A program made the translations under genes and the position numbers. 64,000 nucleotides of DNA from Patescibacteria group bacterium (GTDB taxonomy: Bacteria > Patescibacteriota > Patescibacteriia > PEXW01), in assembly GCA_041665345.1 (NCBI GenBank), contig JBAYJA010000001.1:521206-585205 (forward strand). Direction: 5' to 3'. The notes under the pieces are model-generated. The model worked only from the letters and a program-made list of their open reading frames with translations, searched no databases and had not been told where the DNA came from. Shown one piece after another: positions 3,916-38,566 of the stretch. Every line of letters starts with the position of its first letter. Position 1 is the stretch's first letter.

Positions 3916-4965
3916 ATGCCAGAATCATCTGAACACTTTCCATACATCCAAGAGGGTCAAGAAGCACGGGAACGTGAGCCCGTTTCGGTTGTTAATGCAT
4001 TTCAGGAACGCGGATTACCATCAAGAGAAGATCAACGCGTTGTAGAGATTACAGGTGAACAATCTGTGGTTGAGCATTTGGAACCGTTGCAAGCGCAGAA
4101 TGCGCCCAATGTACTGTACGGGGTACCCCATGGCGGCGAGCTTGTCCCCAAAGAGCTGCACGACCGAATGACCGAAGAGGGGCGAGAGACATCAGTCATG
4201 ATTGATCTGAATACGCCAGATATTTTTCGAAGTGAAAGAATTCCTTCGGTTGAAACAAAAATTTCACGGTACATTGTTGATCCAAATCGAGCACCAGATT
4301 TTCGTCCAGAGGAAGCTTTTGAACCCGGAAAGGCGCCTGGAAAAATACTTTGGAAAACCGGGGCAAATATGGGTCCAATGTATGAACGTGAGCCGTCCGC
4401 TGATGAAATTCAAGAGTATGCGAAAAAGTTTTACCTACCCTACTATAATCGAATGATGGGAACGGTAGGGACAATGCTTGATCGACGTGCTTCACCCTCT
4501 GAGCGTGTATTGATTCTCGATGGTCATTCATTTCCAGTTGTTGAAGATTTACGAAAGTACTACCAGCATTATGGTATAGACCAACCTGAACTCCTCCCCA
4601 TGTTCATTTTGGGAGACCGTGATGGTGAAGGTTGCGACCCAGACATCATGCAGCGTTTTCGGGTAGGACTTGAACGTGGATTCCAAGAACTCTCCGAGCA
4701 AGATCAGGCGTTACTTCAAACAAGCATGAAAGGCCCATTGGTTAGTCAAAATGAGTTCTTAAAAGGAGTGCATAATATTTCATTTTGGGGTGCGCGTGAG
4801 CAAGGGGCAAACGCAATACAAATTGAAATGAATGAGAGTGCTTATGTTGACAGGCAGGGAAGTAGTTGGGAAAAATTCACTTACAATCCGCAAAAAATCA
4901 CTTTGATGCAGAGAATTATTGAACGTGCATCACTTGAAGTAAATGAGCTCTTGAAGCGGAAGTAA
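3916..4965 (+). CDS. N-formylglutamate amidohydrolase (FGase)-like hydrolase
   Basis: Ordered VPHGGE, VDPNR, DGHSFP and IQIEMNE motifs resemble the FGase family. Lower GC than flanking core genes. Confidence 0.4.
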   Translation: MPESSEHFPYIQEGQEAREREPVSVVNAFQERGLPSREDQRVVEITGEQSVVEHLEPLQAQNAPNVLYGVPHGGELVPKELHDRMTEEGRETSVMIDLNTPDIFRSERIPSVETKISRYIVDPNRAPDFRPEEAFEPGKAPGKILWKTGANMGPMYEREPSADEIQEYAKKFYLPYYNRMMGTVGTMLDRRASPSERVLILDGHSFPVVEDLRKYYQHYGIDQPELLPMFILGDRDGEGCDPDIMQRFRVGLERGFQELSEQDQALLQTSMKGPLVSQNEFLKGVHNISFWGAREQGANAIQIEMNESAYVDRQGSSWEKFTYNPQKITLMQRIIERASLEVNELLKRK

Positions 4966-4978
4966 TTCAACACTTACT

Positions 4979-5833
4979 ATGTCCGAAACTTTTTTCCAAG
5001 AGTTTGACCAGAAGATCACCGCATTTGCCAGCAAGGGGAAAATTCGGCTTGGCATGGGTTTGGCTTCACCAGATGATGCAATTCTGAACAGCTTAAAGCA
5101 AGTTGAACAGTATGCCCAAATAACTTTGGTTGGACCTGCGTCCATTCAAGGTTTGAAAGATTTCCCAGTGATTGTTGACCCCGAACCAGAAGTCCGCTTA
5201 GCAACACTCCTAGCAAAAGGAGAGTTTGATGCTATTATCCGCGGGACAGTTGATGACTTTAAAACGTACGAAAAATACACCGAGTTGACAGGGGAAAAGT
5301 ACACTTTTGCACCTGCACTTTTGGCGTCACCGAATGGTTTTCATTTTTTCCTCACCTCTGCAAGCAACCCGGAGAATTGGCAAAAAGAAGATCGGCTGCT
5401 GTCGTCATCACAAATTGCTGGTTTTCTTCAATCTTGGGATGTAACTCCGAACCTCGCTGTTTTTTCTGGGGAGCGACATGAAACTTACCCTCGGAAAAAG
5501 CATATTCGTGAAGGGGTGGTTGGAATACTCAATCAAACGTATGAAGATGCTGAGTGGATTGTGAAGGAACTGCAGGCGCAGGGGTTCCAAGCAAAGCACT
5601 GGGCAATAGATTTGAACCCAGCAATTGAAGCGGGCGCAAATATAATTTGTCCGGTCAATGGTATGGTTGGCAACCAAGTATTCCGGGTCCTCCTTTTCTG
5701 TGGTGGGAAAATTCTCTTTGGAACGCGCTTAGGTTTATCAAAACTGTACGAAGATAACAGCAGAACCGAAAAGGATTTTTCCTACCATGTGAAGTGGTTA
5801 GCGGCATTGGTGAATAAGCAAGCATATGCATGA
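4979..5833 (+). CDS. Hypothetical protein (weak phosphate acyltransferase-like N-terminus)
   Basis: 284 aa ORF. GKIRLGMGLASPDD...ITLVGP is reminiscent of PTA/PTB N-termini but weak. Overlaps the next gene by 8 nt (ATGCATGA). Confidence 0.3.
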   Translation: MSETFFQEFDQKITAFASKGKIRLGMGLASPDDAILNSLKQVEQYAQITLVGPASIQGLKDFPVIVDPEPEVRLATLLAKGEFDAIIRGTVDDFKTYEKYTELTGEKYTFAPALLASPNGFHFFLTSASNPENWQKEDRLLSSSQIAGFLQSWDVTPNLAVFSGERHETYPRKKHIREGVVGILNQTYEDAEWIVKELQAQGFQAKHWAIDLNPAIEAGANIICPVNGMVGNQVFRVLLFCGGKILFGTRLGLSKLYEDNSRTEKDFSYHVKWLAALVNKQAYA

Positions 5834-7262
5834 ACGTTTTGCTGATCGTTTTCTACATGCAGGTCAAAATCAGCTTCTCACAAAGCAGGAAGGGAACCTC
5901 TCGCTTCTCAATTTTGCCTGTTTGTTAAAAGGGTGTTCCCCAGCCTATACCCGACGATACTACGGAAAAATGGATTTTGGATCCCTTGCTTTTTTTAGCC
6001 AAAAGAAGCATGGTATTTCTTTTTTCTCATTACAAAAGTATCAAGAAACCACTCGTCGTACGTTCAGTGCATATCATCAACGAAATACGAAAAAAAGCCC
6101 AAATGTACAGGATTTTCAGAAGTTGTGGAGGGTGGTTGATGGTTTATATAGCAAGTTCAATGAACAGCGTATTCGTCAATTAGATGAACAAGCTTTACAG
6201 AAGTGCATTTCCGAAATTTTAGACAAGATTGCCCGTCTTTTGGCGATGACCGTGTATACCGAGTCATTGGATATTCCGCAAATACAAACTTACTTTCGCG
6301 AAAGTGGTGGAAGAGCGAGTATAGAAAATTCTTTCTTGCAAAAAGTTGTGGTACCAACCTTCGCATCATTTTCTCAGCATGCTCACAAGTTACTCCTTAA
6401 AAAATATTCGAATCATGATGCGCAATTTCTCTTCAGTGATTACTTTTCCAGCCCAACCGAGATACAAGCACAAACCCGAGCACATAGTTTCATTCGTCAA
6501 AAAGGTGGTGTACAGGCAATGCGCCAAACACTACGGCAAATGCAAAAAATGACAAAAAAATCAGAGCAGGTTATACGTCATTTTTGGAAGAAGTTACTAC
6601 CGCAGGAGCGTAAAGTTTTCGCTTTTGTCCAAGCGAGTATTGCTTTACGGGATCTCCGAAAAATCCCGTTTAATAAACTGTTGGTGCTTTTAAACACTGC
6701 AACTCGGGAGGTGCTGCAACGAAATAAAATCCCAGCGCAACTATCCCCGTATGTTTTTTATGCTGAGCTTGAGGAAGGGGTGGTTCGTCAACCTTCCTAT
6801 CTAAAAGTTTTACGTAGCCGGGAACGAAGAGGTGTGAACGCCTACTTTTTTCCAAATGCTGTCCATATCCGATCCGGCGCCTATAACCAAGAATTGAAGC
6901 AATTACTACGAGCCGTTGGGTCGAAGGCTCGGTCTACTCAACTGCAAGGGACAACTGCATTCATAGGCGTCGTGGAAGGGAAAGTGCAACGAATTCTGAG
7001 TGAAAAAGATTTTCACCGCTTCCGGAAAGGGAATATATTAGTTACCAGTATGACACGGCCTGAATTTGTCCCCCTACTTAAAAAGTCAATCGCCATCATC
7101 ACTGACGAAGGTGGGGTGACTTGCCATGCCGCAATTATTTCTCGTGAATTACAAATTCCTTGTATTGTGGGAACGCAAATTGCTACAAGGGTGTTGAAAG
7201 ATGGCATGCAGGTGCGAGTGGATGCTAAACATGGTGTTGTGCAGGTGTTGAAAAACAAGTAA
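5826..7262 (+). CDS. PEP-utilizing enzyme mobile (phospho-histidine swivel) domain protein
   Basis: C-terminal ILVTSMTRPEFVPLLKKSIAIITDEGGVTCHAAIISRELQIPCIVG is a classic PEP-utilizers His domain. The large N-terminal region has no recognisable family. AT-rich coding. Confidence 0.6.
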   Translation: MHERFADRFLHAGQNQLLTKQEGNLSLLNFACLLKGCSPAYTRRYYGKMDFGSLAFFSQKKHGISFFSLQKYQETTRRTFSAYHQRNTKKSPNVQDFQKLWRVVDGLYSKFNEQRIRQLDEQALQKCISEILDKIARLLAMTVYTESLDIPQIQTYFRESGGRASIENSFLQKVVVPTFASFSQHAHKLLLKKYSNHDAQFLFSDYFSSPTEIQAQTRAHSFIRQKGGVQAMRQTLRQMQKMTKKSEQVIRHFWKKLLPQERKVFAFVQASIALRDLRKIPFNKLLVLLNTATREVLQRNKIPAQLSPYVFYAELEEGVVRQPSYLKVLRSRERRGVNAYFFPNAVHIRSGAYNQELKQLLRAVGSKARSTQLQGTTAFIGVVEGKVQRILSEKDFHRFRKGNILVTSMTRPEFVPLLKKSIAIITDEGGVTCHAAIISRELQIPCIVGTQIATRVLKDGMQVRVDAKHGVVQVLKNK

Positions 7263-7265
7263 TAC

Positions 7266-8210
7266 ATGAATACAATGTATACAAAAGAATTTGCGAAAAT
7301 TAGGAAATCAGATTCTTTCATGGCTGGGGGTAAAGGCGCATCATTAGGAAAAATGACACAAGCGCGGATACCTGTTCCCCCAGGCTTTGTTATTCTTGCC
7401 ACGGCATTTGACAAGTTTATTCTTGAAGGGAGTATTGCAACTATCATTGGATCAACGTTGCGAAAGGTAGATTCCCGACAAACCAAGTCTGTCGTTGTCG
7501 CTTCTAAAGAAATCCGACAGGTCATACGTCGAACCAAAATTCCCAGTGAAATACAGAAAGCCATTCAGCAGCAAGTTTCAAAATTAGGAGCACATTTTTT
7601 AGCAGTACGCTCTTCCGCAACGGCTGAAGATGGGGTTGATGCTTCTTGGGCAGGGGAACTGGAAAGTTACCTTAACGTGACTCCGCAGAATGTTATGGCA
7701 GCAGTTCGGAACTGCTGGTCTTCGCTGTTTACCCCTCGAGCAATTTTTTATCGATTTGAAAAGAAATTCCAGAAGAGAAAAGTATCTGTAGCGGTGGTAG
7801 TGCAAACGATGATTCAATCCGAAGTATCTGGTGTAGCTTTTACCGTACATCCGGTAACCAAAAATCGAAATCATGTGGTCATTGAAGCAGGCTATGGATT
7901 GGGTGAAGCAATTGTGGGTGGAAAAATTACTCCGGATATGTTCGTGGTGCATAAAAAAAGTGGGAACATCATCGAACGTCGCATTAGCGAGCAGCACATG
8001 CAGATTGTCCGTTCAGGAACCGGTACAAAGGAGACAAAAGTACCACGTCAAAAAATTGGTTTGCAAAAACTTTCTGATGCAGTCGTGTTACGTCTAGCAA
8101 AACTTTGTCTGACCATTGAGCAGCATTACAAAAAGCCCCAAGATATTGAGTGGGCTTTTGCAAAAGGAAAACTATGTATAGTGCAAAGCAGGCCAATTAC
8201 TACTTTATGA
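7266..8210 (+). CDS. PEP synthase/pyruvate phosphate dikinase N-terminal ATP-grasp (nucleotide-binding) domain protein
   Basis: GGKGASLGKM...IPVPPGFVI and later ATP-grasp motifs match PPDK_N. Starts 4 nt after the preceding His-domain gene. Confidence 0.65.
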   Translation: MNTMYTKEFAKIRKSDSFMAGGKGASLGKMTQARIPVPPGFVILATAFDKFILEGSIATIIGSTLRKVDSRQTKSVVVASKEIRQVIRRTKIPSEIQKAIQQQVSKLGAHFLAVRSSATAEDGVDASWAGELESYLNVTPQNVMAAVRNCWSSLFTPRAIFYRFEKKFQKRKVSVAVVVQTMIQSEVSGVAFTVHPVTKNRNHVVIEAGYGLGEAIVGGKITPDMFVVHKKSGNIIERRISEQHMQIVRSGTGTKETKVPRQKIGLQKLSDAVVLRLAKLCLTIEQHYKKPQDIEWAFAKGKLCIVQSRPITTL

Positions 8211-27759: not shown

Positions 27760-28329
27760 ATGCCTACCAAAGCTACTGCCAAGCCAGCCCGCAAACCCGC
27801 CGCCAAAGCCGCGGCCAAGAAACCCACCAAGCACACTGCTGCTGGCGGGAAGATTGTGGTGAAGCGCGCGGTGAAGAAAGTAGTCCACAAAGCAGCCGTA
27901 CCAAAGGTGGAAGCGCTGCACACGGTGGCCATGCCCGCCCGGGAGGAGTACCAGTCAACAGTTGGCCGCCGCAAAACTGCGGTTGCCCGCGTGCGCTACT
28001 ACAAACTGGGTACCGGGGAAATTGTGGTAAACAACTTGCCCGTGGAAAAGTACTTTGGGTACTTTACCTGGCAAGAGCTGGCCAAGCGCCCGCTGACCAT
28101 TGCCAACTGGCAAACTGGCCGCTGGACCATCAAAGTCCAAGGCGGTGGCGTTCCCGCCCAGGCGCACGCCATGGCGCACGGCATTGCCCGCATGCTCCAA
28201 ACTCTGGACGTTGATCTGCGTGCTTCCCTCAAGAAGGCAGGCATGTTGACCCGGGATGCCCGCGTCAAAGAGCGCAAGAAGTACGGTTTGAAGCGTGCTC
28301 GCCGCGCCCCGCAGTGGCAGAAGCGTTAA
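27760..28329 (+). CDS. rpsI: 30S ribosomal protein S9 with about 60-aa K/A-rich N-terminal extension
   Basis: S9 core YQSTVGRRKTAVARV... through C-terminal KKYGLKRARRAPQWQKR. Histone-H1-like N-terminal tail. Confidence 0.85.
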   Translation: MPTKATAKPARKPAAKAAAKKPTKHTAAGGKIVVKRAVKKVVHKAAVPKVEALHTVAMPAREEYQSTVGRRKTAVARVRYYKLGTGEIVVNNLPVEKYFGYFTWQELAKRPLTIANWQTGRWTIKVQGGGVPAQAHAMAHGIARMLQTLDVDLRASLKKAGMLTRDARVKERKKYGLKRARRAPQWQKR

Positions 28330-29918: not shown

Positions 29919-31655
29919 ATGAAGGTGCTCCTCCTCACCACTACCTTTCTCCCAGCCTACGGCGGCGTGGAGAAGTTTTTGGCCACGCTGTTTGGAGACC
30001 AAGCTGCTCTCCACGTTGATGTGCTCACCGAACCCGGGGCAGACGTGGTCCCCAAGTGGAAGCTTATTCGTCAGCCCTTGCTCACTGGGAAAATCCGCCC
30101 CCGCTGGCTGCAGACTCTGTGGCAGATTCCAAAGCTCGTTAGCGAGCAAAAGTACGACGTCATTGTGCTGGGCCACTACGCTCCATACCTCGCAGGCGCG
30201 TTCAATGCACGCAAGAAGTTTGGCACCAAAGTCGTGGTTATCACCCATGGGTACGATGTCCTGAGCTATGACACTGCTGGTGGCTTCCGCCGGTGGTGGT
30301 TGCGTCGTCACTTGCGGAGTGCAAACCTGGTGGTCGCCAATAGCCAGTTTACAAACGAGCACCTGAAGCGCTTGGGGGTGGCGGAAAGCCGCAGAACCGT
30401 CCTGACGCCTGGGGCAGAGATTCCCATTGACGTCCTGAGCAAAGCTGAGGCTCGGCAAAAATTACAACTACCTGCTGATAGCCAGGTGCTGCTCACCGTG
30501 GGCCGATTAGCGAACCGTAAAGGCCATACCCTGGCTGTCGACGCCGTGGCGCAGCTTGTGCAAACCTTTCCCAAGTTGCACTACCTTATTGTTGGCCGCG
30601 GGTCAGAAGAGGGGAGTATTCAGCAGCGGATTGCCAAGCACAAGCTGGAAGCGCAGGTACACGTCCTGAACAACGTAGAAGATACCAGCATTGTCTACGC
30701 TGCCGCTGATTTGTTCCTGTTCCCCAGTACCGAAGGCGGGCGGGGGAATGTGGAAGGTTTTGGCTTGGTGAGCGTGGAAGCGCAGATGCACGGGCTACCA
30801 GTCATTGCCAGCAACACCGGCGGCATTCCCGAAACCCTGGAAAAAGGTTTGACCGGCGAGTTGGTAGAACCCGGGGAAGCGGATGAAATTGCCAAAGCCG
30901 TGGAACCGCTGCTGGCTGATCCCTTGAAACTCCAACGTTACAGTGACCGCGCCCGGAAGTTTGCCGTTGAGCATTTCCAGTGGGAAACCCGCCGTACCCG
31001 GATTGTGGAACTACTCACTACTGTCACAAAAGTTCCCAAGGTGAAAGTGAGCGTAGTAATTCCAGCCTTTAACAGTGCCAAGACGCTTGCCACCACCCTC
31101 AACAACCTCAATGCCCAAACCTTGAAGCCAGCAGAGATTGTCGTTGTGGATGATGGTTCTACTGACGACACCTCCGAAATCGCGAAGAAGTTTGACGTGC
31201 AGCTTATCCGCCAGGAGAACAAAGGCGCCCCTGCCGCTCGGAATGCCGGGTTTGCCAAAACCACAGGGGACTTTGTGCTGTACTGTGATGCCGATGTGCA
31301 GCTGCAGCCAACCATGCTGGAAAATATGACTCGAGCCTTGCTCCTGCACCCTGAGGCCGGCTATGCCTACAGTGACTTCAAGTTTGGCTGGCATACGTTT
31401 GATTTGTTTGATTTTGATTCAGAGCGTTTGCAAAAAGCCAACTACATTTCCACCATGTCCTTGCTGCGGAGAGAGAACTGTATTGGCTTTGATGAGAGCT
31501 TGAAACGGTACCAGGACTGGGATTTGTGGAAGAGGTTGCTGGTGAAGGGTGTGAGGGGGATGTGGGTGCCTGGACGACTTTTTAATGCAGGCTTCGGAGG
31601 GATAAGCAAAGATTCTGTGAAGGATGTATGGAAACTCGCAAAGTCGAAAATGTAG
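29919..31655 (+). CDS. Bifunctional glycosyltransferase (N-terminal GT4, C-terminal GT2)
   Basis: GT4 motifs (EGFGLVSVEAQMHGLPVIASNTGG) followed by a GT2 domain (VSVVIPAFN...VVDDGSTDDT). Confidence 0.8.
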   Translation: MKVLLLTTTFLPAYGGVEKFLATLFGDQAALHVDVLTEPGADVVPKWKLIRQPLLTGKIRPRWLQTLWQIPKLVSEQKYDVIVLGHYAPYLAGAFNARKKFGTKVVVITHGYDVLSYDTAGGFRRWWLRRHLRSANLVVANSQFTNEHLKRLGVAESRRTVLTPGAEIPIDVLSKAEARQKLQLPADSQVLLTVGRLANRKGHTLAVDAVAQLVQTFPKLHYLIVGRGSEEGSIQQRIAKHKLEAQVHVLNNVEDTSIVYAAADLFLFPSTEGGRGNVEGFGLVSVEAQMHGLPVIASNTGGIPETLEKGLTGELVEPGEADEIAKAVEPLLADPLKLQRYSDRARKFAVEHFQWETRRTRIVELLTTVTKVPKVKVSVVIPAFNSAKTLATTLNNLNAQTLKPAEIVVVDDGSTDDTSEIAKKFDVQLIRQENKGAPAARNAGFAKTTGDFVLYCDADVQLQPTMLENMTRALLLHPEAGYAYSDFKFGWHTFDLFDFDSERLQKANYISTMSLLRRENCIGFDESLKRYQDWDLWKRLLVKGVRGMWVPGRLFNAGFGGISKDSVKDVWKLAKSKM

Positions 31656-31703
31656 TAAATTGGTATAGCCGATCGATTTTGCCTCGGAAAAGGAGAAGTG
31701 AGG

Positions 31704-31731
31704 GTAAAAAAATCCCATCGGGTGATGGGAT
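31704..31731 (-). terminator. Rho-independent terminator (minus-strand gene; possibly bidirectional)
   Basis: tcccatcgggtgatggga hairpin preceded by an A7 run, giving a T-run on the minus strand. Confidence 0.55.
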
Positions 31732-31750
31732 GTAAATTCTGGGAGGTGTA

Positions 31751-32389
31751 TTAGACCCCCTGGGTCAATTTGTGTTGGTACCATGGAGCAATGTCGAGGT
31801 GCCACCCGAGCTCCTGGGTTGCTTTCCACAGGAGAAGCTCAATTGCGGCGAGGCGATCGTTCGGGTGTTCTTCGACGAGTAGCCTGACGGCTTTGACAAG
31901 GTTGAATGCAACCTTGTCGCAGGCATAGCGCTCGGTTTTGCCGAGGCACTCAATGAGCAGATCGAGATTGTCGAGGACCCCTATGAACCCAATGGACTCA
32001 CCAGTCATGGAATCACGGTAGTACTCGTATGCATCGTCAGAAACGGTACCATTCACATAGAGCCCTGGTATGACTGATTGGGGAGGAGCGTCACGCACGC
32101 CGTCAAGCGGGTAATAGCCGAGACCGCCCAAGCCGTTCTCGAGCTTATTGACGATATAGCCCGGTGAATTGCTCGGTCCCTCCGGTGTCATCAGCGCGAT
32201 TACCGCACGCATGATAAGTTCACACGCATTGTGCGGAGAATAGTCCTTGCCGCTTAATGCCAGGCAATACTGGACCGTTTCTGCGCGGGCTAAGAGATCG
32301 GAGCGGCTGATCGTGCCGTTAGTCGATGTGACGTATGCATGGGTCAACGGGATTTCCCCCGGCTTGATCCTAATGGAGATAGGGTTCAC
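31751..32389 (-). CDS. Hypothetical protein
   Basis: 212 aa, native GC, no recognised family. Confidence 0.45.
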   Translation of the reverse strand: MNPISIRIKPGEIPLTHAYVTSTNGTISRSDLLARAETVQYCLALSGKDYSPHNACELIMRAVIALMTPEGPSNSPGYIVNKLENGLGGLGYYPLDGVRDAPPQSVIPGLYVNGTVSDDAYEYYRDSMTGESIGFIGVLDNLDLLIECLGKTERYACDKVAFNLVKAVRLLVEEHPNDRLAAIELLLWKATQELGWHLDIAPWYQHKLTQGV

Positions 32390-32700
32390 TTTTCCTCCTG
32401 GGAAGATGCTTTGTTTTGAGTTTTTGCTTTCGTAAAGATTACCTGTGATTTACACTTATGGCAAGGTCAGTAGTTGATTTTTGGCTAGGAAAGGGGGAGA
32501 ATGGGGGCATGATCGAACTCAAGACCAAGAAAACCAAGGCATCAAGCAGCTCAAGAAAAAGCTCTATAGCAAAGTCCGTCGAGGTCCGGTTGAGGGGAAG
32601 GCTGTGAGCAGGGATTGAGGTAGGAGAGGGTTGTTTTGGTTGGTTTTCGTCTCGCCGGCAGGCTTTGATTTATCGGCAGTATTTAGAGTAGACTAGCTTT

Positions 32701-34671
32701 ATGAAGATTACTTCTGTTTCAATATCTAATATCCTTAGTTTTCCTCATAAGGAAGCATTTTCTACTCCCACTATTACCTTTCAAGGCGAACGATCAGGAG
32801 GAAGTCAGCATATTTTGATTGGTCCAAACGGGTCGGGGAAAAGTAATTTTATTGAAATAATCAACCAGATTTTCCAAAGGGTTCTGTTTCAGCCTATTGT
32901 CTTTAATGAAAGCTCTCTAAATCAATTTAAAAGGACTGGTAATAAGAATGGCTTAGGGCAAACAATCCAGACACCACAAAAAAGCCCCACTAGTTATATT
33001 GAAAAAAATTATTATTCAACCCAGATGGATAAAAAAGTAATTATAGAGATTGAACTAAGCGATAAAGACCAGGAAAACATAATCTTTCTTGGACACAATA
33101 TTGAACAAATAAATGAAATGATTGATAGGTATGGAAGTTCAGGCACTCCGGTGATTCATAAATTCTCAACCAGTTTTGATTTAAACGAACTTGCCAAAAT
33201 TCACAAGTTAGAGTTAACAATTGAAGATAATTCACCGACAAATACCTATACTGTAAACGTAAATGGAAATACCCCAGAAAAGCAGCTTGCGAGTGAATAC
33301 CTTCAATTTTTTAAACTTTTAAAAAGGCTTATATATATTCATAACAGTTATGAGATAGGAGAGCGGGGAACTTCTTGGAAAGAAATAAACGAAAATTTCG
33401 TTTTGCTCGGAAGCTACAGGAATTACCATAGCTTTAATGAATCAGTCGATGTTAATCCTGATCCCGAGGCTCAATTTAGGGCATTGGATGAGAGGCGATT
33501 AAATGAAAATACTAAGAGTGGTGACAATAACGAACCAGCTGTCATGGAACTTGTTCGCCGAAAAGTAGCAAATGAATACCATCGTTTAATACATAATCCG
33601 GAAGCAACTGTTAAAAAAGCACCCGAGTTAATAAAAAGCTTCCCATTGCTAAAGAAAATTAATGAAAAGTTAAATTCTTTTTTAGGTATAACCCTAGAAA
33701 TCACTGATCCAGAATATAGGGATTTAAGCTATGAAATGTTTTTTTCCGACAATAACGCAGGTGGTCAAAGGGTGAATTTCTCCGGTTTAAGTTCAGGCCA
33801 AAAAAGTATAGTACACCTTATTTTTACTTTGTTTGGATACGATCTTGATAACGGTTCTATAATAATTGATGAGCCAGAACTTCATTTGCATCCTCAAATG
33901 CAACAAAAGTACTTAAAACTTATTAAAGAATTAAAGGAAGAAAAGAACATACAATTTGTTATCGCTACTCACTCCCCAATTTTTGTAAATTCTGAAACTA
34001 TTAAGGACACATATCGATTTTTTATGGACCAGAAAGAGACAAAAATTATTAATCCAAAGATCACGAGTTCAGAATATGAACTAATCAAAATTCTGGATTA
34101 TACAAATTCTTCAAAGATCTTTTTCTCTGAAAAAGCAATTCTAGTCGAAGGCGAGTCTGACGAGTTTTTTTATAGGTACTTCATTGAAGAATATCTGAAA
34201 ACAGAATTCCCATCTCTACAAAGTCAACAGTTAAAAACTTATGAAGTTTTTAATATTAGTGGGAAAGGAAGTAGTAAAAGATGGAGAAAGTTTTTAGAAG
34301 ATTTTAAAGTCGATGTCTCTTTTGTGGCAGATTGGGACAATATCGCTAACTTTAAAATTGAAAATGTACAAGAAATGGCGAATCTTACAAGCAAGACTCA
34401 AACTGATTATTGCGGAATAACTGAAGAATTGATCAAGAATCATAACGTAAAGTTTAGTGAGATTTCGTCAGCTATTGATAGCCTCAAAGCGTCTAAGAAT
34501 TACATATTAAAATTAGGGTCCCTTGAGTGTTACCTAGGGTTGTCAGGAAAGGAAAAAGTGGAAGAAGTCATTGATTTTTGTCATACAAGATTTTTAAGCT
34601 GGAAAATAGAACCCGTCTATGAGAACAAACGGCTTGAATTAGAAAATATTTTTAAAGGCATACTAGTATAA
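32701..34671 (+). CDS. OLD-family ATP-dependent endonuclease (ABC-type ATPase + TOPRIM), class-1 OLD or fused PARIS AriA/AriB-like
   Basis: Walker A GPNGSGKSN, ABC signature-like LSSGQKS, Walker B IIIDEPELHLHP, H-loop ATHSP. TOPRIM motifs: ILVEGESDE, ISGKGS, VADWDN. Strongly AT-rich compared with the flanks. Confidence 0.8.
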   Translation: MKITSVSISNILSFPHKEAFSTPTITFQGERSGGSQHILIGPNGSGKSNFIEIINQIFQRVLFQPIVFNESSLNQFKRTGNKNGLGQTIQTPQKSPTSYIEKNYYSTQMDKKVIIEIELSDKDQENIIFLGHNIEQINEMIDRYGSSGTPVIHKFSTSFDLNELAKIHKLELTIEDNSPTNTYTVNVNGNTPEKQLASEYLQFFKLLKRLIYIHNSYEIGERGTSWKEINENFVLLGSYRNYHSFNESVDVNPDPEAQFRALDERRLNENTKSGDNNEPAVMELVRRKVANEYHRLIHNPEATVKKAPELIKSFPLLKKINEKLNSFLGITLEITDPEYRDLSYEMFFSDNNAGGQRVNFSGLSSGQKSIVHLIFTLFGYDLDNGSIIIDEPELHLHPQMQQKYLKLIKELKEEKNIQFVIATHSPIFVNSETIKDTYRFFMDQKETKIINPKITSSEYELIKILDYTNSSKIFFSEKAILVEGESDEFFYRYFIEEYLKTEFPSLQSQQLKTYEVFNISGKGSSKRWRKFLEDFKVDVSFVADWDNIANFKIENVQEMANLTSKTQTDYCGITEELIKNHNVKFSEISSAIDSLKASKNYILKLGSLECYLGLSGKEKVEEVIDFCHTRFLSWKIEPVYENKRLELENIFKGILV

Positions 34672-34710
34672 AAAAATCTAGGCTCATGCCCAAAACCCCA
34701 CTTCAACCCC

Positions 34711-35112
34711 ATGAAATATCCCCTCACAATCATCGCCATCATCACTCTTCTCCTGACCGCCACGGCATGCACAAAGAATACTCCAACGACTAACACGCCG
34801 GTTGTGGTCAATACTATAGTGAATCAAGGCACCGCACCTACCGAATCCGGATGTCCGCAAGAAGGGCATATTAAATCTCCGGCCAGCACAAACGCGGCGA
34901 CGATTACATTTGATAACCAAACTGGCGCTGACCTGAAAGTTTACTGGCTCGACTTTAACGGGGCGCGGAAGTTTTATACCGACGTGAAAGCGCATAGCAA
35001 AAAAGACCAAGCCACCTGGGTCGGACATGTATGGGTCGTGGCTGATGGTGCCGGACAATGCGTCAAGCTTCATTCCGCCAACGCCGTCGCTCAAACGCTC
35101 GTGATTGATTAA
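34711..35112 (+). CDS. Lipoprotein, N/T-rich linker family
   Basis: Signal peptide and lipobox LLTATAC, then a TNTPVVVNTIVNQG linker. Confidence 0.6.
   Translation: MKYPLTIIAIITLLLTATACTKNTPTTNTPVVVNTIVNQGTAPTESGCPQEGHIKSPASTNAATITFDNQTGADLKVYWLDFNGARKFYTDVKAHSKKDQATWVGHVWVVADGAGQCVKLHSANAVAQTLVID
35041..35112 (+). repeat. Direct repeat copy 1 (3' end of lipoprotein gene)
   Basis: About 86% identical to 35779-35850. Confidence 0.8.
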
Positions 35113-35148
35113 GAAGGCTCAGCTTTACATTGCTTAACAACCAACTGT

Positions 35149-35763
35149 ATGCGTAAAATAGTCACAACGACATTCATTACCCTTGATGGGGTCATGCAAG
35201 CGCCGGGCGGCCCAGATGAGGATAAAGCCAGTGGGTTTGCGTTTGGTGGATGGCAAGCGCCGTTCGTGGATGGTGAGCTCATGAAGACTATGGGCGAATG
35301 GCTGGGGCAGCCGTTCGAACTGCTCCTTGGCCGAAAAACCTACGATATCTTCGCAGCGTACTGGCCCTCGAATACGAGTGTGCCGGTTGTGGCCGAGCCA
35401 TTCAATGCAACCAGAAAGTACGTCGTTTCACACAATCCTGATTTCAAGCCCACGTGGAATAATTCCGTGGTGGTGTCTGGCGATGTTGCAGCCGAAATTG
35501 CAAAACTCAAAGCCATGGAGGGCAAGGATCTTTGGGTGCATGGCAGTGGGAGCCTTATTCAGACCTTGCTTAAGCACCAGTTGATCGATCGGATGCACCT
35601 CTGGATCCATCCACTGACCATTGGCTCTGGCAAGAAATTGTTCGAACAGGGAACCCAGCCGGCGACGTGGAAACTGGTTGAGGCAAAGATTGGGACCTCG
35701 GGGATAATCTTAGCCACCTATGAGCCTGCCGGGCCGCTGGAAACGGGGACCGTGGGGACATAA
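35149..35763 (+). CDS. Dihydrofolate reductase family protein (RibD C-terminal domain-like)
   Basis: TFITLDGVMQAPGGPDED...LLLGRKTYD...WVHGSGSLIQTLL matches the bacterial DHFR-like/RibD_C family. Confidence 0.7.
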   Translation: MRKIVTTTFITLDGVMQAPGGPDEDKASGFAFGGWQAPFVDGELMKTMGEWLGQPFELLLGRKTYDIFAAYWPSNTSVPVVAEPFNATRKYVVSHNPDFKPTWNNSVVVSGDVAAEIAKLKAMEGKDLWVHGSGSLIQTLLKHQLIDRMHLWIHPLTIGSGKKLFEQGTQPATWKLVEAKIGTSGIILATYEPAGPLETGTVGT

Positions 35764-35778
35764 ACATTCACTTTTTTG

Positions 35779-35850
35779 GCTGATGGTGCCGGACAATGCG
35801 TCAAACTCCATTCAGCCAACGCCGTTAGCCAAACGCTGGTGATTAATTAG
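35779..35850 (+). repeat. Direct repeat copy 2 (remnant of lipoprotein 3' end; candidate pseudogene fragment)
   Basis: It would encode LADGAGQCVKLHSANAVSQTLVIN*, versus VADGAGQCVKLHSANAVAQTLVID* in copy 1. It is in the same frame as the DHFR-like gene and directly after its stop. Confidence 0.75.
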
Positions 35851-35875
35851 CAAGCTTAATTGGTTATTAACGCCT

Positions 35876-36370
35876 ATGAAAAAAACAATTTGTTTCCTCA
35901 GCACCGTGCTATTTGCCCTTCTCCTCTCCGGCTGTACGTCTGGCAGCACAACGAACACGACAAATACTACTGGTGTGGTGAATACCATAAATCAGGCCGT
36001 GGCGACAGCGAATGAGAACAGTAATGCAAGTGTCGCAAGCGATACAGATAAAGTATGTGGCTGGGTAAATAAATCTGATGTGATTATGAAGCTCAACTTT
36101 GCCGATGGTGTGGCAAAAGATACTTCGTACGAAGCAGGGTTTTATTTGTCAGAAATAAATCTCTTTGCCCGGCTCGCCCGCAAGGAGTGTGATTACCGGA
36201 CTGGTTTCAGCTACGAAGAGCTGAAGGGGAAGGGCGCAGTTCAGCTGGGCGTGCGGGGGTATACGGATAGCAATCGGCGCCAGCTGGCAAACGAGCCGCT
36301 CAGTGTTGTCATCGGTGCTGATGGCCATCCCAATATTGGGTCTGCTATCGAAGTAACGGTTTTGGATTAA
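35876..36370 (+). CDS. Lipoprotein, N/T-rich linker family
   Basis: Lipobox LLLSGC, then TNTTNTTGVVNTINQA. Confidence 0.6.
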   Translation: MKKTICFLSTVLFALLLSGCTSGSTTNTTNTTGVVNTINQAVATANENSNASVASDTDKVCGWVNKSDVIMKLNFADGVAKDTSYEAGFYLSEINLFARLARKECDYRTGFSYEELKGKGAVQLGVRGYTDSNRRQLANEPLSVVIGADGHPNIGSAIEVTVLD

Positions 36371-36531
36371 TGAAAAGAATAACCCTCTCCATCCTCGCAA
36401 TACTGCTCGGAGTATTTCTCTTTATCTACGGCGGAGCTGATGATAGTCCTGGCGCCCAAGGACTTGGGCTGCTCCTGGTGCTTTTTGGGGTATACTGGTT
36501 CTGGAAGATGAAGAAGAAAAAGGCTGTCTAA
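36370..36531 (+). CDS. Small two-TM membrane protein
   Basis: 53 aa, MKRITLSILAILLGVFLFIYGG...LLLVLFGVYWFWKMKKKKAV. Its start overlaps the upstream stop (TAATG). Not in the ORF track because it is under 60 aa. Confidence 0.45.
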   Translation: MKRITLSILAILLGVFLFIYGGADDSPGAQGLGLLLVLFGVYWFWKMKKKKAV

Positions 36532-36556
36532 CATTCCCCGTTTGTATGTAATCCGT

Positions 36557-36590
36557 TTTACTCAATAAAAAGCACCCCGTTGAAAAACTC
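36557..36590 (-). terminator. Rho-independent terminator for minus-strand lipoprotein gene
   Basis: ccccgttgaaaaactcaacgggg hairpin preceded by an A-run on the + strand. Confidence 0.55.
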
Positions 36591-36627
36591 AACGGGGGCT
36601 GAAATGTGCTGATTTGACCGAAGTGGC

Positions 36628-37086
36628 TTACTTATTCAAAAAGTCAAACAGAGCTTTCTGGGAGGGAGTCAGGTCTTCGACGAGTATCATTTCTTCATCC
36701 CATTTGGTCTTTCCTGGGCGAATGAATGAAAGGTAAATCCTTTTTACTCGCTCGCAATAAACAGTATGACCAACTCTTCCTGCCGCATCAACAAGATCGT
36801 CGGTGTCTTCGTAGTCTTCCGTTACGAGTCTATTCGTGGCTCCAGATACCGTGCCAATGATCAGACTCGCTTCCTTGTCTTTGCATGAATCCGGTACTTC
36901 GGTTGAGTAGATCACTTTGACTTCGGCGCTTTCCATTCGTGCCGCCTGCAGAAGATTGACCAACGTGATGTTGTCAGTGGATTCAGCTTTCGCCTCTCCT
37001 TCAGAACTCCCGCTGCAGCCAACTAGCGAAATGCTTGCGAACATTGCGGCGAAAAGCAGGGTCAGTAGAATTGTACTCTTTTTCAA
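36628..37086 (-). CDS. Lipoprotein
   Basis: Signal peptide and lipobox SLVGC. Confidence 0.6.
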   Translation of the reverse strand: MKKSTILLTLLFAAMFASISLVGCSGSSEGEAKAESTDNITLVNLLQAARMESAEVKVIYSTEVPDSCKDKEASLIIGTVSGATNRLVTEDYEDTDDLVDAAGRVGHTVYCERVKRIYLSFIRPGKTKWDEEMILVEDLTPSQKALFDFLNK

Positions 37087-37268
37087 GGTGCCTCCTAGAT
37101 ATTAGGTGTTGGTGCTTGGTTTCTTCGTTTCGTAATCAAAAACAATAGCACAAATTGATTATTTGTCAATAGCATTAGGGAAAGGGTTGACCGTTAGCAC
37201 CAATAACGAAGTTTTCAATTCGCACGGGAGGGGAAGGTGACAAGAGAGAGCCGGTATGCTATAGCTAC

Positions 37269-37628
37269 ATGCACACTATGGCGCAAATTCAACTACTAAC
37301 GACAGCACTGACGAAAGCCGAGTTGCAAGAAATTGCAAACGAACGTTTTGGTGATATGGTGAAAGGTGTTGTGGACGTTGCGCAGGGGCTTTTGGCACTT
37401 GGCGGAGAGCTCCATGCGGATATTGAAGCGTTTCTCCTGGATCATGGCTCCGTGCAGGCAAATTTGTGGGGCATAAACCTCTACCCATCAATGGATTTCC
37501 CGGGTATGGTTGAATTCGATTCAATGATCAATATTCGTCCCAGCCAAGGAAATTCGTCCCGCGGGGTTGAAAATGAGGATCTCCAGAAAAAGATTCTGGC
37601 AGTTGTACAGAAGCACCTTGTCCAATGA
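37269..37628 (+). CDS. Hypothetical protein
   Basis: 119 aa ORF. Confidence 0.4.
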   Translation: MHTMAQIQLLTTALTKAELQEIANERFGDMVKGVVDVAQGLLALGGELHADIEAFLLDHGSVQANLWGINLYPSMDFPGMVEFDSMINIRPSQGNSSRGVENEDLQKKILAVVQKHLVQ

Positions 37629-37948
37629 GCCAAGCACAGCATCATGACCTGGCGCAGGGACGGTGGCAAAATATGACTTTAGCCGAACAGCTTGGGAACG
37701 TTGGAAGTGAGTACAGCCGAGCACGAAAGTGGAAGGAGCAGGGGAACGAACAGTTTTTTGGTAAAGCTTTTTCTCGGCTCCTTGAGCTTCTGGATTTGAC
37801 GATTACTGATAACCGCTGGCACGGACCACGTCGCCGCGAACTCACTCGGGTGCGTAGTGGGGTATGCGAAGAGCTCCTGGGGAGAGAAGCAGCAGGAATG
37901 AGCTTCAACAAGTACTTTGATGTCATGGCTGTAGCGGCGCGAAGGTAG
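37625..37948 (+). CDS. Hypothetical protein
   Basis: 107 aa. Overlaps the upstream stop (ATGA). Confidence 0.4.
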   Translation: MSQAQHHDLAQGRWQNMTLAEQLGNVGSEYSRARKWKEQGNEQFFGKAFSRLLELLDLTITDNRWHGPRRRELTRVRSGVCEELLGREAAGMSFNKYFDVMAVAARR

Positions 37949-37977
37949 AATCTTCGCGTTGTTTCAGAGTAATCACT

Positions 37978-38289
37978 ATGACCAAACCAAAAATCTCCGG
38001 CGGTGTCGCCCACAAAATGCCCTTGGATTTGCAGAAAGCTCTGCTTGCTGACAAAGCTGCTTTGCATTTGTGGGAAGACATTACCCCGCTGGCCCGGAAT
38101 GAGTGGATTTGCTGGGTGGAATTTGTGAAGTCACCAGAGAAGCGGAAGGAGCATATTGTACGTGTGGTTTCCGAGCTTAAAGAGGGGATGCGCCGACCGT
38201 GCTGTTGGATTGGGTGTACGCACCGGAAAGATAAAAAAATAAGCCCATCAGTCAAAGGGATACTTTTGAAACGGGGATATAAAGTTTAG
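37978..38289 (+). CDS. YdeI/OmpD-associated family protein
   Basis: The LDLQKALLADKAALHLWEDITPLARNEWICWV pattern is typical of the YdeI-like bacteriocin-protection family. Confidence 0.55.
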   Translation: MTKPKISGGVAHKMPLDLQKALLADKAALHLWEDITPLARNEWICWVEFVKSPEKRKEHIVRVVSELKEGMRRPCCWIGCTHRKDKKISPSVKGILLKRGYKV

Positions 38290-38296
38290 GGGTATA

Positions 38297-38311
38297 CCCC
38301 CACACCAAATT
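38297..38311. repeat. Left 15-bp inverted repeat (cccccacaccaaatt)
   Basis: Perfect reverse complement of 38565-38579. Confidence 0.85.
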
Positions 38312-38566
38312 ATGTTTTATCTTTATATCTTAAAAAGTCACAAGGATAATAAGCTGTATATTGGATCAACGAATGACCTTCGACGACGCTTTAAGGAGCA
38401 CAATGAAGGTAAAGTCTTTTCGACGAAAAGCAGACGACCATTTGAGATCGTATACTATGAGGCATATAAGGCCGAAAAAGACGCGCGTCATAGAGAGGTA
38501 AATGTAAAATTACGTAGTCGTGCCTTTACGCAATTGAAGAAGCGAATTGGAAATAGTCTAGAGTAA
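38312..38566 (+). CDS. GIY-YIG nuclease family protein (UPF0213/YhbQ-like)
   Basis: FYLYILKS...LYIGSTNDLRRRFKEHNEG. AT-rich coding. Confidence 0.75.
   Translation: MFYLYILKSHKDNKLYIGSTNDLRRRFKEHNEGKVFSTKSRRPFEIVYYEAYKAEKDARHREVNVKLRSRAFTQLKKRIGNSLE

What the first reader, a model, noticed from the sequence alone, without database searches (positions are those of the whole stretch)
32701..34671. AT-rich single-gene island encoding an OLD-family ABC-ATPase/TOPRIM nuclease (candidate defence system)
A 656-aa protein combines an ABC-type ATPase with a C-terminal TOPRIM domain carrying VEGESDE and DxD motifs. This is the architecture of OLD-family nucleases (phage P2 Old, Gabija GajA, PARIS AriA+AriB). 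Its DNA is markedly more AT-rich than both flanks and the change is sharp at the gene boundaries, so it looks horizontally acquired. No UvrD-like helicase (GajB) and no separate DUF4435 gene follows. It is therefore either a class-1 stand-alone OLD nuclease or a fused single-polypeptide PARIS-like effector. It sits beside other accessory cargo.
Basis: partly seen in the sequence, partly recalled or inferred. Interest (0 to 1): 0.75.

Follow-up and report, generated by a model that had tools for sequence, protein, structure and literature searches.

The report
Stand-alone OLD nuclease defence gene
A small-genome Patescibacteria (CPR) bacterium has picked up one foreign, AT-rich gene for an OLD-family ATPase-nuclease, most likely an anti-phage defence gene; the gene is a distant new member of a known family, and it sits at a spot where related bacteria carry other defence genes.

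Summary
ORF 32701-34671 (+) encodes a 656-aa protein with an ABC-type ATPase (AAA_21, AAA_15) and an OLD-type TOPRIM domain. Every catalytic motif is intact. GC is 0.333 against 0.507 for the rest of the window. The lowest-GC gene-sized stretch starts exactly at the start codon, and a change-point fit gives 32666-34680.

The window comes from a 1.08-Mb contig of a Patescibacteria (Kerfeldbacteria-like) MAG. Relatives keep L17-L13-S9-flippase-glycosyltransferase, but none has the OLD gene downstream. In several of them the same slot holds other AT-rich defence cargo (restriction-modification genes, GmrSD/HNH, Mrr, AbiEii).

No helicase, reverse transcriptase or DUF4435 partner is present here or beside eight homologues, so by context it is a Class 1 (stand-alone) OLD. 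The nearest solved relative is Thermus OLD (Class 1). The fused PARIS-like alternative is not supported.

The protein belongs to a small, uncultured, bacterial-archaeal clade (226 representatives at E<=1e-30). Its nearest full-length relatives are about 37-40% identical. Unlike the Class 1 enzymes described so far, the clade keeps a near-canonical ABC signature motif.

Verdict: a real gene and a new member of a known kind. Interest is moderate to low. The trigger and the nucleic-acid target are unknown.

The parts
32701..34671 (+). OLD-family ATPase-nuclease gene, 656 aa (NCBI MFA6042264.1 / MFA6473799.1, annotated 'AAA family ATPase')
   Evidence: ORF list; Pfam AAA_21, AAA_15 and OLD-like_TOPRIM; PADLOC Old 9.8e-29; accessions; AlphaFold2 model pLDDT 88.4 with TsOLD 6P74 as top Foldseek hit
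32666..34680 (.). AT-rich segment (GC 0.332 against 0.512 outside): the acquired unit, which is the ORF plus 35 bp upstream and 9 bp downstream
   Evidence: two-change-point likelihood fit, log-likelihood ratio 98; sliding GC
32812..32847 (+). Walker A / P-loop, ILIGPNGSGKSN (residues 38-49); N43, G46, K47, S48 invariant in the clade
   Evidence: alignment A1; coordinates
33781..33807 (+). Near-canonical ABC signature motif, LSSGQ (L363, S364, G366); reported as degenerate in Class 1 OLDs described so far
   Evidence: A1 invariants; coordinates; statement about degenerate signature in PMC7049728
33856..33894 (+). Walker B and D-loop, SIIIDEPELHLHP (D390, E391, H397; H397 corresponds to Ts H283)
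   Evidence: A1 invariants; alignment to 6P74; TsOLD residue roles
33946..33978 (+). Q418 and H-loop, ATHSP (H424 corresponds to Ts H310)
34120..34338 (+). OLD-type TOPRIM core (residues 474-546). It includes E483 (metal A), D487 (metal B) and D544xD546 (metal A).
   Evidence: Pfam PF20469; alignment to TsOLD E377, D381, D431, D433; residue roles; invariance
34516..34551 (+). G606-S607-L-E609 (inferred metal-B ligands, like Ts S478/E480) and K617 (inferred equivalent of Ts R487 / Bp K562)
   Evidence: G606 and E609 invariant; position after the last TOPRIM strand in the model. The mapping to Ts residues is inferred from motif spacing and was not shown by superposition.
31656..36386 (.). Variable slot immediately downstream of the conserved glycosyltransferase. 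It holds hyp212 (-), OLD, a VHL-like lipoprotein, RibD_C and a 164-aa lipoprotein. All are absent at this position in relatives.
   Evidence: tblastn and blastn against related loci. In L012 the GT is followed at once by the small ORF matching 36387-36519, then OmdA.
29919..31655 (+). Left anchor: fused GT4-GT2 glycosyltransferase, last gene of the conserved L17-L13-S9-flippase-GT block
   Evidence: Pfam; 68-89% identical in relatives
37269..38566 (+). Right anchors: DUF5674, hyp107, OmdA and a GIY-YIG gene. In relatives these recur 0.04-8.7 kb downstream of the GT.

Best explanation
This is a horizontally acquired, single-gene anti-phage defence determinant: a Class 1 (stand-alone) OLD-family nuclease. 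It lies in a recurrent defence-cargo slot of a Kerfeldbacteria-like Patescibacteria genome.

Shown here:
- The protein has an N-terminal Rad50/SMC-like ABC ATPase interrupted by an insertion of about 300 aa, followed by a C-terminal OLD-type TOPRIM nuclease. All ATP-binding and hydrolysis motifs and both metal-binding acidic clusters are intact.
- The gene is compositionally foreign and absent from relatives.
- The same slot in relatives carries other defence genes.

Inferred, by analogy with TsOLD, VcOLD and P2 OLD:
- The protein dimerises through the inserted domain.
- ATP binding or hydrolysis at the engaged heads licenses the TOPRIM site. The near-canonical LSSGQ signature makes head engagement plausible.
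- The TOPRIM site cuts nucleic acid by two-metal catalysis once a phage cue is sensed.
- The outcome is either a block of phage genome replication by DNA nicking or degradation (as in VcOLD and TsOLD), or abortive infection by cutting host tRNA (as in P2 OLD).

The trigger and the substrate cannot be told from sequence.
For: Architecture and motifs.

Nearest solved relative is the Class 1 TsOLD, both by fold (Foldseek E 5.8e-15) and by clade profile (74 bits, 7.6e-20, spanning the ATPase C-lobe and TOPRIM). The Eco8 OLD (Class 3) scores 49 bits. GajA is not among the 60 rows listed of the 71 sequence hits.

Foreign composition with sharp boundaries.

Absent downstream of the GT in about 20 related loci.

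The same slot in relatives is AT-rich and holds defence genes:
- L032: N6_N4 methylase plus a weak PD-(D/E)XK hit
- L009: EcoRI-type methylase, GmrSD_N/HNH, DpnI-like
- L028: AbiEii, Eco57I/MmeI methylase, ResIII helicase, Mrr

No partner gene here, and no recurrent partner in eight homologue loci.

Homologues sit among defence or mobile genes: type III Mod and Res, PDC-S31, Mrr-NACHT, serine recombinase, AlpA/RhuM. They are AT-rich relative to flanks in 8 of 9 loci and are spread over bacteria and archaea.

Class 1 OLDs have experimentally shown anti-phage activity: PMC12392090, PMC12445682, PMC13261556.
Against: There is no functional evidence for this protein or for any member of its clade.

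No known phage of this host exists, and no phage-encoded or plasmid-encoded close relative was found.

No integrase, tRNA gene or flanking repeat marks a mobile element, so the acquisition route is unknown.

The protein is very distant from characterised OLDs: under 100 bits to any PADLOC model, below every NCBIfam cut-off, and 14% identity to TsOLD in the structural alignment.

Not all OLD-family proteins are defensive. Cran1 (Class 5) acts in the archaeal cell cycle.

All four samples carry 99.99% identical DNA, so selection on the gene cannot be measured.
Confidence: 0.78

Rival explanations
1. It is a fused single-polypeptide PARIS-like (AriA+AriB, Class 4) effector that senses phage anti-restriction proteins and releases a tRNA-cutting TOPRIM.
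For: The AriA models score well on the ATPase part (PDLC02980, 87 bits; AriA 64 bits with the clade profile). The fused AriAB model also gives a hit (65 bits).
Against: The TOPRIM matches OLD-like_TOPRIM PF20469 and gave no DUF4435 hit at E<=1. The Old model outscores AriAB, 99 against 65 bits, and covers ATPase plus TOPRIM. The AriA hits cover only the shared ABC ATPase core. The best structural match is TsOLD and then GajA, not AriA or AriB.
Confidence: 0.05
2. It is one component of a multi-gene system whose partner is an unrecognised neighbouring gene, such as the 212-aa gene upstream or the VHL-like lipoprotein 40 bp downstream. That would make it not truly Class 1.
For: The downstream gene is only 40 bp away on the same strand. 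The neighbours are also absent from relatives at this position. Some clade members do overlap adjacent genes: type III Mod and Res in L007, and a 372-aa gene with a weak PDC-M34B hit in L006.
Against: The neighbours have host-like GC and GC3 (0.47-0.55 and 0.49-0.65), while the AT-rich unit ends within 9-35 bp of the ORF. The neighbours have no PADLOC hit. Homologues of hyp212 and VHL133 are absent from all eight homologue loci. No gene recurs next to clade members.
Confidence: 0.07
3. It has a non-defence cellular role in DNA repair or chromosome and cell-cycle maintenance, like Cran1, the Class 5 OLD ATPase-nickase of Sulfolobales.
For: OLD ATPases resemble Rad50/SMC/RecF. Cran1 shows that an OLD protein can be essential and not defensive. 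The gene lies a few genes downstream of a ribosomal-protein operon.
Against: Cran1-type genes are vertically inherited and conserved within one order. This gene is absent from all relatives sampled, compositionally foreign, a singleton at 50% identity, and part of a clade scattered across bacteria and archaea in variable neighbourhoods.
Confidence: 0.05
4. It is a selfish or decaying remnant of a mobile element, with no current benefit to the host.
For: It is foreign DNA with no mobility genes left. Some homologues lie next to a serine recombinase or AlpA, or between Cas1 and PolB.
Against: The reading frame is full length and every catalytic residue invariant in the clade is retained. The same sequence was recovered in four samples.
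Confidence: 0.05

Closest known systems
Thermus scotoductus OLD (TsOLD, PDB 6P74), Class 1 OLD nuclease
   Same: It is the best structural hit (Foldseek E 5.8e-15) and the best sequence-profile hit (74 bits). Both have an ABC ATPase with an inserted domain followed by a TOPRIM, and both are stand-alone genes. The catalytic residues map as follows: K47=K34, E391=E277, H397=H283, H424=H310, E483=E377, D487=D381, D544/D546=D431/D433. Only about 45 residues follow the SxE motif, so there is no Class 2-type C-terminal helical domain.
   Different: Identity in the structural alignment is only 14%. The protein is 128 residues longer, mostly through a larger insertion in the ATPase (about residues 60-360). 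It has a canonical Walker B Asp (D390) where Ts has Glu, and a near-canonical LSSGQ signature where Class 1 OLDs are reported as degenerate. The stretch between DxD and SxE is longer, variable and helical (residues 547-600, low pLDDT at 551-570).
Phage P2 Old, Vibrio cholerae VcOLD and E. coli YbjD (characterised Class 1 OLDs)
   Same: All are stand-alone genes in variable neighbourhoods with the same two-domain plan. PADLOC's Old model is the best hit.
   Different: The score against the Old model is below 100 bits. The known members act differently from each other: P2 OLD severs tRNA anticodon stems, VcOLD nicks DNA, and YbjD does not need its TOPRIM. Which behaviour applies here is therefore open. 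No close relative exists in cultured phages or plasmids.
Gabija GajA (Class 2 OLD)
   Same: It is the second-best structural match (8U7I, 8X5I, 8SM3). Several GajA models hit at 1e-17 to 1e-22.
   Different: No GajB or UvrD-like helicase lies next to the gene or next to any of eight homologues. GajA is not among the 60 rows listed of the 71 profile-sequence hits.
Uncharacterised OLD clades U1-U11 of Yang et al. 2025 (PMC12796447)
   Same: That study reports mixed bacterial-archaeal uncharacterised OLD clades (U1, U2, U4), whose scattered distribution is taken as a sign of horizontal spread. This clade likewise mixes Patescibacteria, Nitrososphaerota and Bacteroidota.
   Different: I could not establish whether this clade is one of them. 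Clade-specific motifs were not found in the stored part of their dataset, but that file may be truncated.

Membership tests
OLD family (ABC ATPase + TOPRIM nucleases) | N-terminal ABC-type ATPase with Walker A, Walker B, D-loop and H-loop | tested here: met
   AAA_21 and AAA_15 above cut-off. GPNGSGKS, IIIDEPELHLHP and ATHSP are present and invariant in the clade.
OLD family (ABC ATPase + TOPRIM nucleases) | C-terminal OLD-type TOPRIM with a conserved Glu, a DxD, and a second acidic cluster for two-metal catalysis | tested here: met
   PF20469 at 45 bits against a cut-off of 23. E483, D487, D544, D546 and E609 are invariant. E483, D487 and DxD align to Ts E377, D381 and D431/D433. The SxE and Lys mapping is inferred from spacing.
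OLD family (ABC ATPase + TOPRIM nucleases) | ATP hydrolysis and metal-dependent nuclease activity | not testable with these tools
   This needs purified protein.
Class 1 OLD (stand-alone) | Single gene in a variable neighbourhood, with no dedicated partner | tested here: met
   There is no helicase, RT or DUF4435 within +/-10 kb. The neighbours have no PADLOC hit. Eight homologue loci show no recurrent neighbour.
Class 1 OLD (stand-alone) | Lacks the Class 2 C-terminal helical domain; the catalytic Arg or Lys comes from the loop after the SxE motif | tested here: inconclusive
   The model has only about 45 residues of short helices after E609, and K617 lies 8 residues after E609. No residue-level superposition on 6P74 or 6NK8 was possible.
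Class 1 OLD (stand-alone) | Degenerate ABC signature motif (reported for all Class 1 homologues in PMC7049728) | tested here: not met
   LSSGQ is present, with S364 invariant and L363 and G366 at 90% or more in the clade. This is a descriptive trait of previously sampled members, not the class definition, which rests on context.
Class 2 OLD / Gabija GajA | [quoted passage not shown] | tested here: not met
   No such gene is present here or beside any homologue examined.
Class 3 OLD / retron Eco8-type effector | Adjacent reverse transcriptase and msr/msd non-coding RNA | tested here: not met
   No RT domain within +/-10 kb. No Rfam family hit anywhere in the window. The NCBIfam Eco8 effector scores 60 bits against a cut-off of 250.
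Class 4 OLD / PARIS (AriA+AriB) | TOPRIM of the DUF4435 type, on a separate AriB protein or fused | tested here: not met
   No DUF4435 hit at E<=1; PF20469 hits instead. The AriAB model scores 65 bits against 99 for Old. There is no separate DUF4435 gene.
Class 5 OLD / Cran1 | Vertical inheritance and conservation within a lineage | tested here: not met
   The gene is absent from all related loci, compositionally foreign, and belongs to a clade scattered across domains.

The most novel reading that the evidence does not exclude
The clade may be a distinct, uncharacterised class of stand-alone OLD nucleases. It comprises about 226 representatives at 50% identity, is known almost only from uncultured bacteria and archaea, is consistently AT-rich, retains a near-canonical ABC signature, and has a large ATPase insertion. 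Its activation logic (canonical ATP-sandwich head engagement) and its target may differ from P2, Vc and Ts OLD. It would then serve as a portable one-gene immunity module for ultra-small CPR bacteria and Nitrososphaerota. Separately, the slot after the ribosomal-operon-flippase-GT block may be an integrase-free defence hotspot shared by a whole Kerfeldbacteria-like lineage.
Probability: 0.25. Interest if true: 0.55.

Novelty: new member of a known kind. Interest (0 to 1): 0.35.

Why it matters
Class 1 OLD nucleases are the least understood branch of a widespread defence family. Only a handful have been tested, and those act in different ways (tRNA amputation, DNA nicking, TOPRIM-independent effects).

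This gene adds a very divergent, apparently functional member from a CPR bacterium with a genome of about 1.08 Mb. Such organisms cannot be cultured and little is known about their immunity.

The more useful by-product is contextual. A single chromosomal slot just after a conserved ribosomal-operon-flippase-glycosyltransferase block carries different AT-rich defence cargo in different relatives. That slot gives a simple anchor for mining new defence genes in Patescibacteria metagenomes.

The clade's intact ABC signature also makes it a good candidate for structural work on how ATP controls the OLD nuclease.

Tried and rejected
- tRNA and Rfam scans of the whole window found nothing, so there is no tRNA integration site and no retron RNA.
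- A search for flanking direct or inverted repeats found only short chance matches. Promoter-like and terminator-like sites were no more frequent than in shuffles.
- A metagenome scan with the upstream 212-aa protein found no relative, so no clean empty site with both immediate neighbours adjacent could be recovered.
- I tried to place the clade among U1-U11 of PMC12796447 by searching clade motifs in its supplementary dataset. There were no matches, and the file may be truncated, so this is inconclusive.
- Protein searches of the phage and plasmid collections found no close relatives and therefore no vector.
- Comparing the four samples that carry the gene showed 99.99% identical DNA, so no test of selection was possible.
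- The other low-GC stretch of the window (4-9 kb) was checked and is metabolic, not defence.
- A literature search on defence systems in Patescibacteria gave nothing specific.
- The fused PARIS, Gabija, retron and Cran1-like readings were rejected on the tests listed under membership.
Full report
**Observation**

The ORF at 32701-34671 (+) is real and encodes 656 aa. Pfam finds AAA_21 (1.9e-24), AAA_15 (3.4e-23) and OLD-like_TOPRIM PF20469 (1.4e-11, residues 474-546), all above their curated cut-offs. The best PADLOC model is Old (9.8e-29). It is followed by AriA (ATPase part only), GajA, the retron I-B ATPase-Toprim model and PtuA. No NCBIfam model reaches its cut-off; the best is the Eco8 effector at 60 bits against 250.

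Gene GC is 0.333, against 0.507 for the rest of the window. The lowest-GC 1,971-bp window of the whole 64 kb starts exactly at 32701 (z = -4.7), and the gene is also the top tetranucleotide outlier. GC3 is 0.30, against 0.49-0.78 for the surrounding genes. A two-change-point fit places the AT-rich unit at 32666-34680. The composition claim and the "sharp at the gene boundaries" claim both hold.

**Source and context**

The identical protein is on record from a Patescibacteria MAG (NCBI MFA6042264.1) on a 1,075,605-bp contig. It was also found in three further samples with the same neighbours and 99.99% identical DNA.

Upstream lies the S13-S11-S4-rpoA-L17-L13-S9 operon, then a polysaccharide flippase and a fused GT4-GT2 glycosyltransferase. 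Downstream come small lipoproteins, RibD_C, DUF5674, OmdA and a GIY-YIG gene. There is no helicase, reverse transcriptase, DUF4435 gene, integrase or tRNA nearby. No neighbour has a meaningful PADLOC hit.

**Synteny test**

I used the glycosyltransferase as a probe and recovered about 20 related loci, labelled Kerfeldbacteria or Patescibacteria, with 68-89% GT identity.

- All loci with enough upstream sequence keep L17-L13-S9-flippase-GT. None has the OLD gene, nor hyp212, the VHL-like lipoprotein, RibD_C or the 164- and 152-aa lipoproteins, downstream of the GT.
- The right-hand genes recur at variable distance from the GT. OmdA follows it directly in L012. The GIY-YIG gene follows it directly in L035. 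DUF5674-hyp107 lie 4.4 kb away in L032, the closest relative.
- In L012 the small ORF just after the GT matches window 36387-36519, which places the variable segment at about 31656-36386.
- In L009, L010, L014, L028 and L032, GC drops from 0.54-0.59 in the core to 0.31-0.40 soon after the GT.

The cargo in that slot is largely defence-related:

| Locus | Cargo downstream of the GT |
|---|---|
| L032 | DUF3644, N6_N4 methylase, weak PD-(D/E)XK hit |
| L009 | EcoRI-type methylase, GmrSD_N/HNH, DpnI-like |
| L028 | AbiEii, Eco57I/MmeI methylase, ResIII/T5orf172 helicase, Mrr |
| L010 | ATPase_2/DUF234, DUF3800 |
| L014 | MerR, DUF4325 |

The OLD gene therefore occupies a lineage-wide slot that repeatedly receives AT-rich defence cargo.

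**The protein**

I aligned 65 clade members (A1). The invariant and near-invariant residues map onto the TsOLD catalytic residues as follows. TsOLD roles come from PMC7049728, the alignments, and the coordinates.

| Motif | Residues here | TsOLD equivalent |
|---|---|---|
| Walker A | N43, G46, K47, S48 | K34 |
| ABC signature | L363, S364, G366 (LSSGQ) | degenerate in Ts |
| Walker B | D390, E391 | E276, E277 |
| D-loop His | H397 | H283 |
| H-loop | H424 | H310 |
| TOPRIM metal A | E483, D544xD546 | E377, D431/D433 |
| TOPRIM metal B | D487; inferred S607, E609 | D381; S478, E480 |
| Transition-state Arg/Lys | inferred K617 | R487 |

The G606-S607-L-E609 and K617 assignments rest on motif spacing and position in the model, not on a superposition.

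Two traits differ from the Class 1 enzymes described so far. The ABC signature is near-canonical rather than degenerate, and the Walker B has a canonical Asp.

The AlphaFold2 model is confident (pLDDT 88.4, pTM 0.88). Its best PDB match is TsOLD 6P74 (E 5.8e-15), followed by GajA structures. With the clade profile, TsOLD is again first (74 bits, spanning the ATPase C-lobe and the TOPRIM). It leads AriA, PtuA and the Eco8 OLD (49 bits), and GajA is not among the 60 rows listed of the 71 hits.

**The clade**

An exhaustive search of 1.84 billion representatives gives 226 proteins at E<=1e-30 and 730 at E<=1e-10. The query is a singleton at 50% identity. Its nearest full-length relatives are about 37-40% identical and come from Patescibacteria, Nitrosotalea and other Nitrososphaerota, Cytophagaceae and unnamed metagenomes. 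No close relative exists in cultured phages or plasmids.

Eight homologue loci show no recurrent partner, and hyp212 and VHL133 homologues are absent from all of them. Their neighbours are:

- a serine recombinase and a PDC-S31 candidate defence gene (L005)
- a type III Mod and Res that overlap the OLD gene (L007)
- Cas1 and, further along, a family-B polymerase (L008)
- smpB nearby (L041)
- AlpA and RhuM (L043)
- an Mrr-NACHT protein (L044)
- housekeeping genes (L042)
- a 372-aa gene overlapping the OLD gene, with a weak PDC-M34B hit (L006)

The OLD gene is more AT-rich than its flanks in 8 of 9 loci.

**Interpretation**

OLD classes are defined by gene context (Dot et al. 2023, as summarised in PMC10568477 and PMC12796447). 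By that definition this is a Class 1 stand-alone OLD. The Class 2, 3, 4 and 5 definitions each fail on a tested feature; see the membership table.

The most likely function is anti-phage defence. The inferred mechanism has three steps:
1. The protein dimerises through the inserted domain.
2. ATP controls engagement of the ATPase heads.
3. Head engagement gates a two-metal TOPRIM nuclease.

Characterised Class 1 enzymes diverge in mode: P2 OLD severs tRNA anticodon stems, VcOLD nicks DNA and blocks phage replication, TsOLD is an exo/endonuclease in vitro, and YbjD does not need its TOPRIM. The substrate and the trigger here therefore remain open.

**Verdict**

The gene is a new, distant member of a known kind. 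The defence-hotspot context and the clade's ATPase features are the points worth following up.

Noticed in passing
window 31656-37268; related loci L009 11735-16800, L010 11735-16750, L014 8281-10250, L028 7341-15250, L032 410-2830: The interval just after the conserved L17-L13-S9-flippase-GT block is a recurrent slot for AT-rich, mostly defence-type cargo in a Kerfeldbacteria-like lineage (R-M genes, GmrSD/HNH, Mrr, AbiEii, DUF3800). No integrase, tRNA gene or flanking repeats are visible.
   Followed up: partly
L007 4223-10555: An OLD homologue (P0017, 36% identical) is nested between a type III methyltransferase (PADLOC MTase_III, 424 bits) and a type III restriction helicase (REase_III, 100 bits). 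Start and stop codons overlap on both sides, which suggests a three-gene Mod-OLD-Res operon and a possible partnered variant of this clade.
   Followed up: partly
L008 3104-12925 (Nitrosotalea devaniterrae LN890280.1): The archaeal OLD homologue P0040 lies between a Cas1 gene and a family-B DNA polymerase gene, an arrangement reminiscent of a casposon carrying OLD as cargo. Terminal inverted repeats were not searched.
   Followed up: no
L014 8401-9445 and L007 1226-2272: The same gene pair, a MerR/HTH_17 regulator followed by a DUF4325 (STAS-like) protein, appears in the defence slot of a relative (L014) and upstream of the Mod-OLD-Res cluster in L007. It may be a small mobile or defence-associated cassette.
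   Followed up: no
window 32458-32607: Some gene callers predict a 49-aa ORF in the 310-bp spacer upstream of the OLD gene (L002, L003). The spacer has host-like GC (0.47-0.50) and no matches elsewhere. The ORF is probably spurious.
   Followed up: partly
window 38312-38566: An 84-aa stand-alone GIY-YIG protein gene with low GC (0.38, GC3 0.36) is nevertheless conserved in relatives (about 60% identity in L028 and L035). Low GC here is therefore not by itself proof of recent acquisition.
   Followed up: partly
window 3916-8210: A second, milder low-GC stretch (0.42-0.46) encodes an FGase-like amidohydrolase, an unknown 284-aa protein, and a split PEP-utilising enzyme (a mobile-domain protein followed by a PPDK_N protein). 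It is metabolic rather than defence.
   Followed up: partly
window 27760-28329: Ribosomal protein S9 carries a Lys/Ala/Pro-rich N-terminal extension of about 60 residues (189 aa in total). In relatives the tblastn alignments often begin only at residue 26-39.
   Followed up: no
L002 7220-8955 and 9051-9512, against window 29919-31655 and 31751-32389: In one sample the glycosyltransferase is called as two genes (310 + 268 aa) and hyp212 as 153 aa, yet the DNA differs from the window by a single mismatch and a single gap. This is either a real frameshift variant or an assembly error.
   Followed up: no
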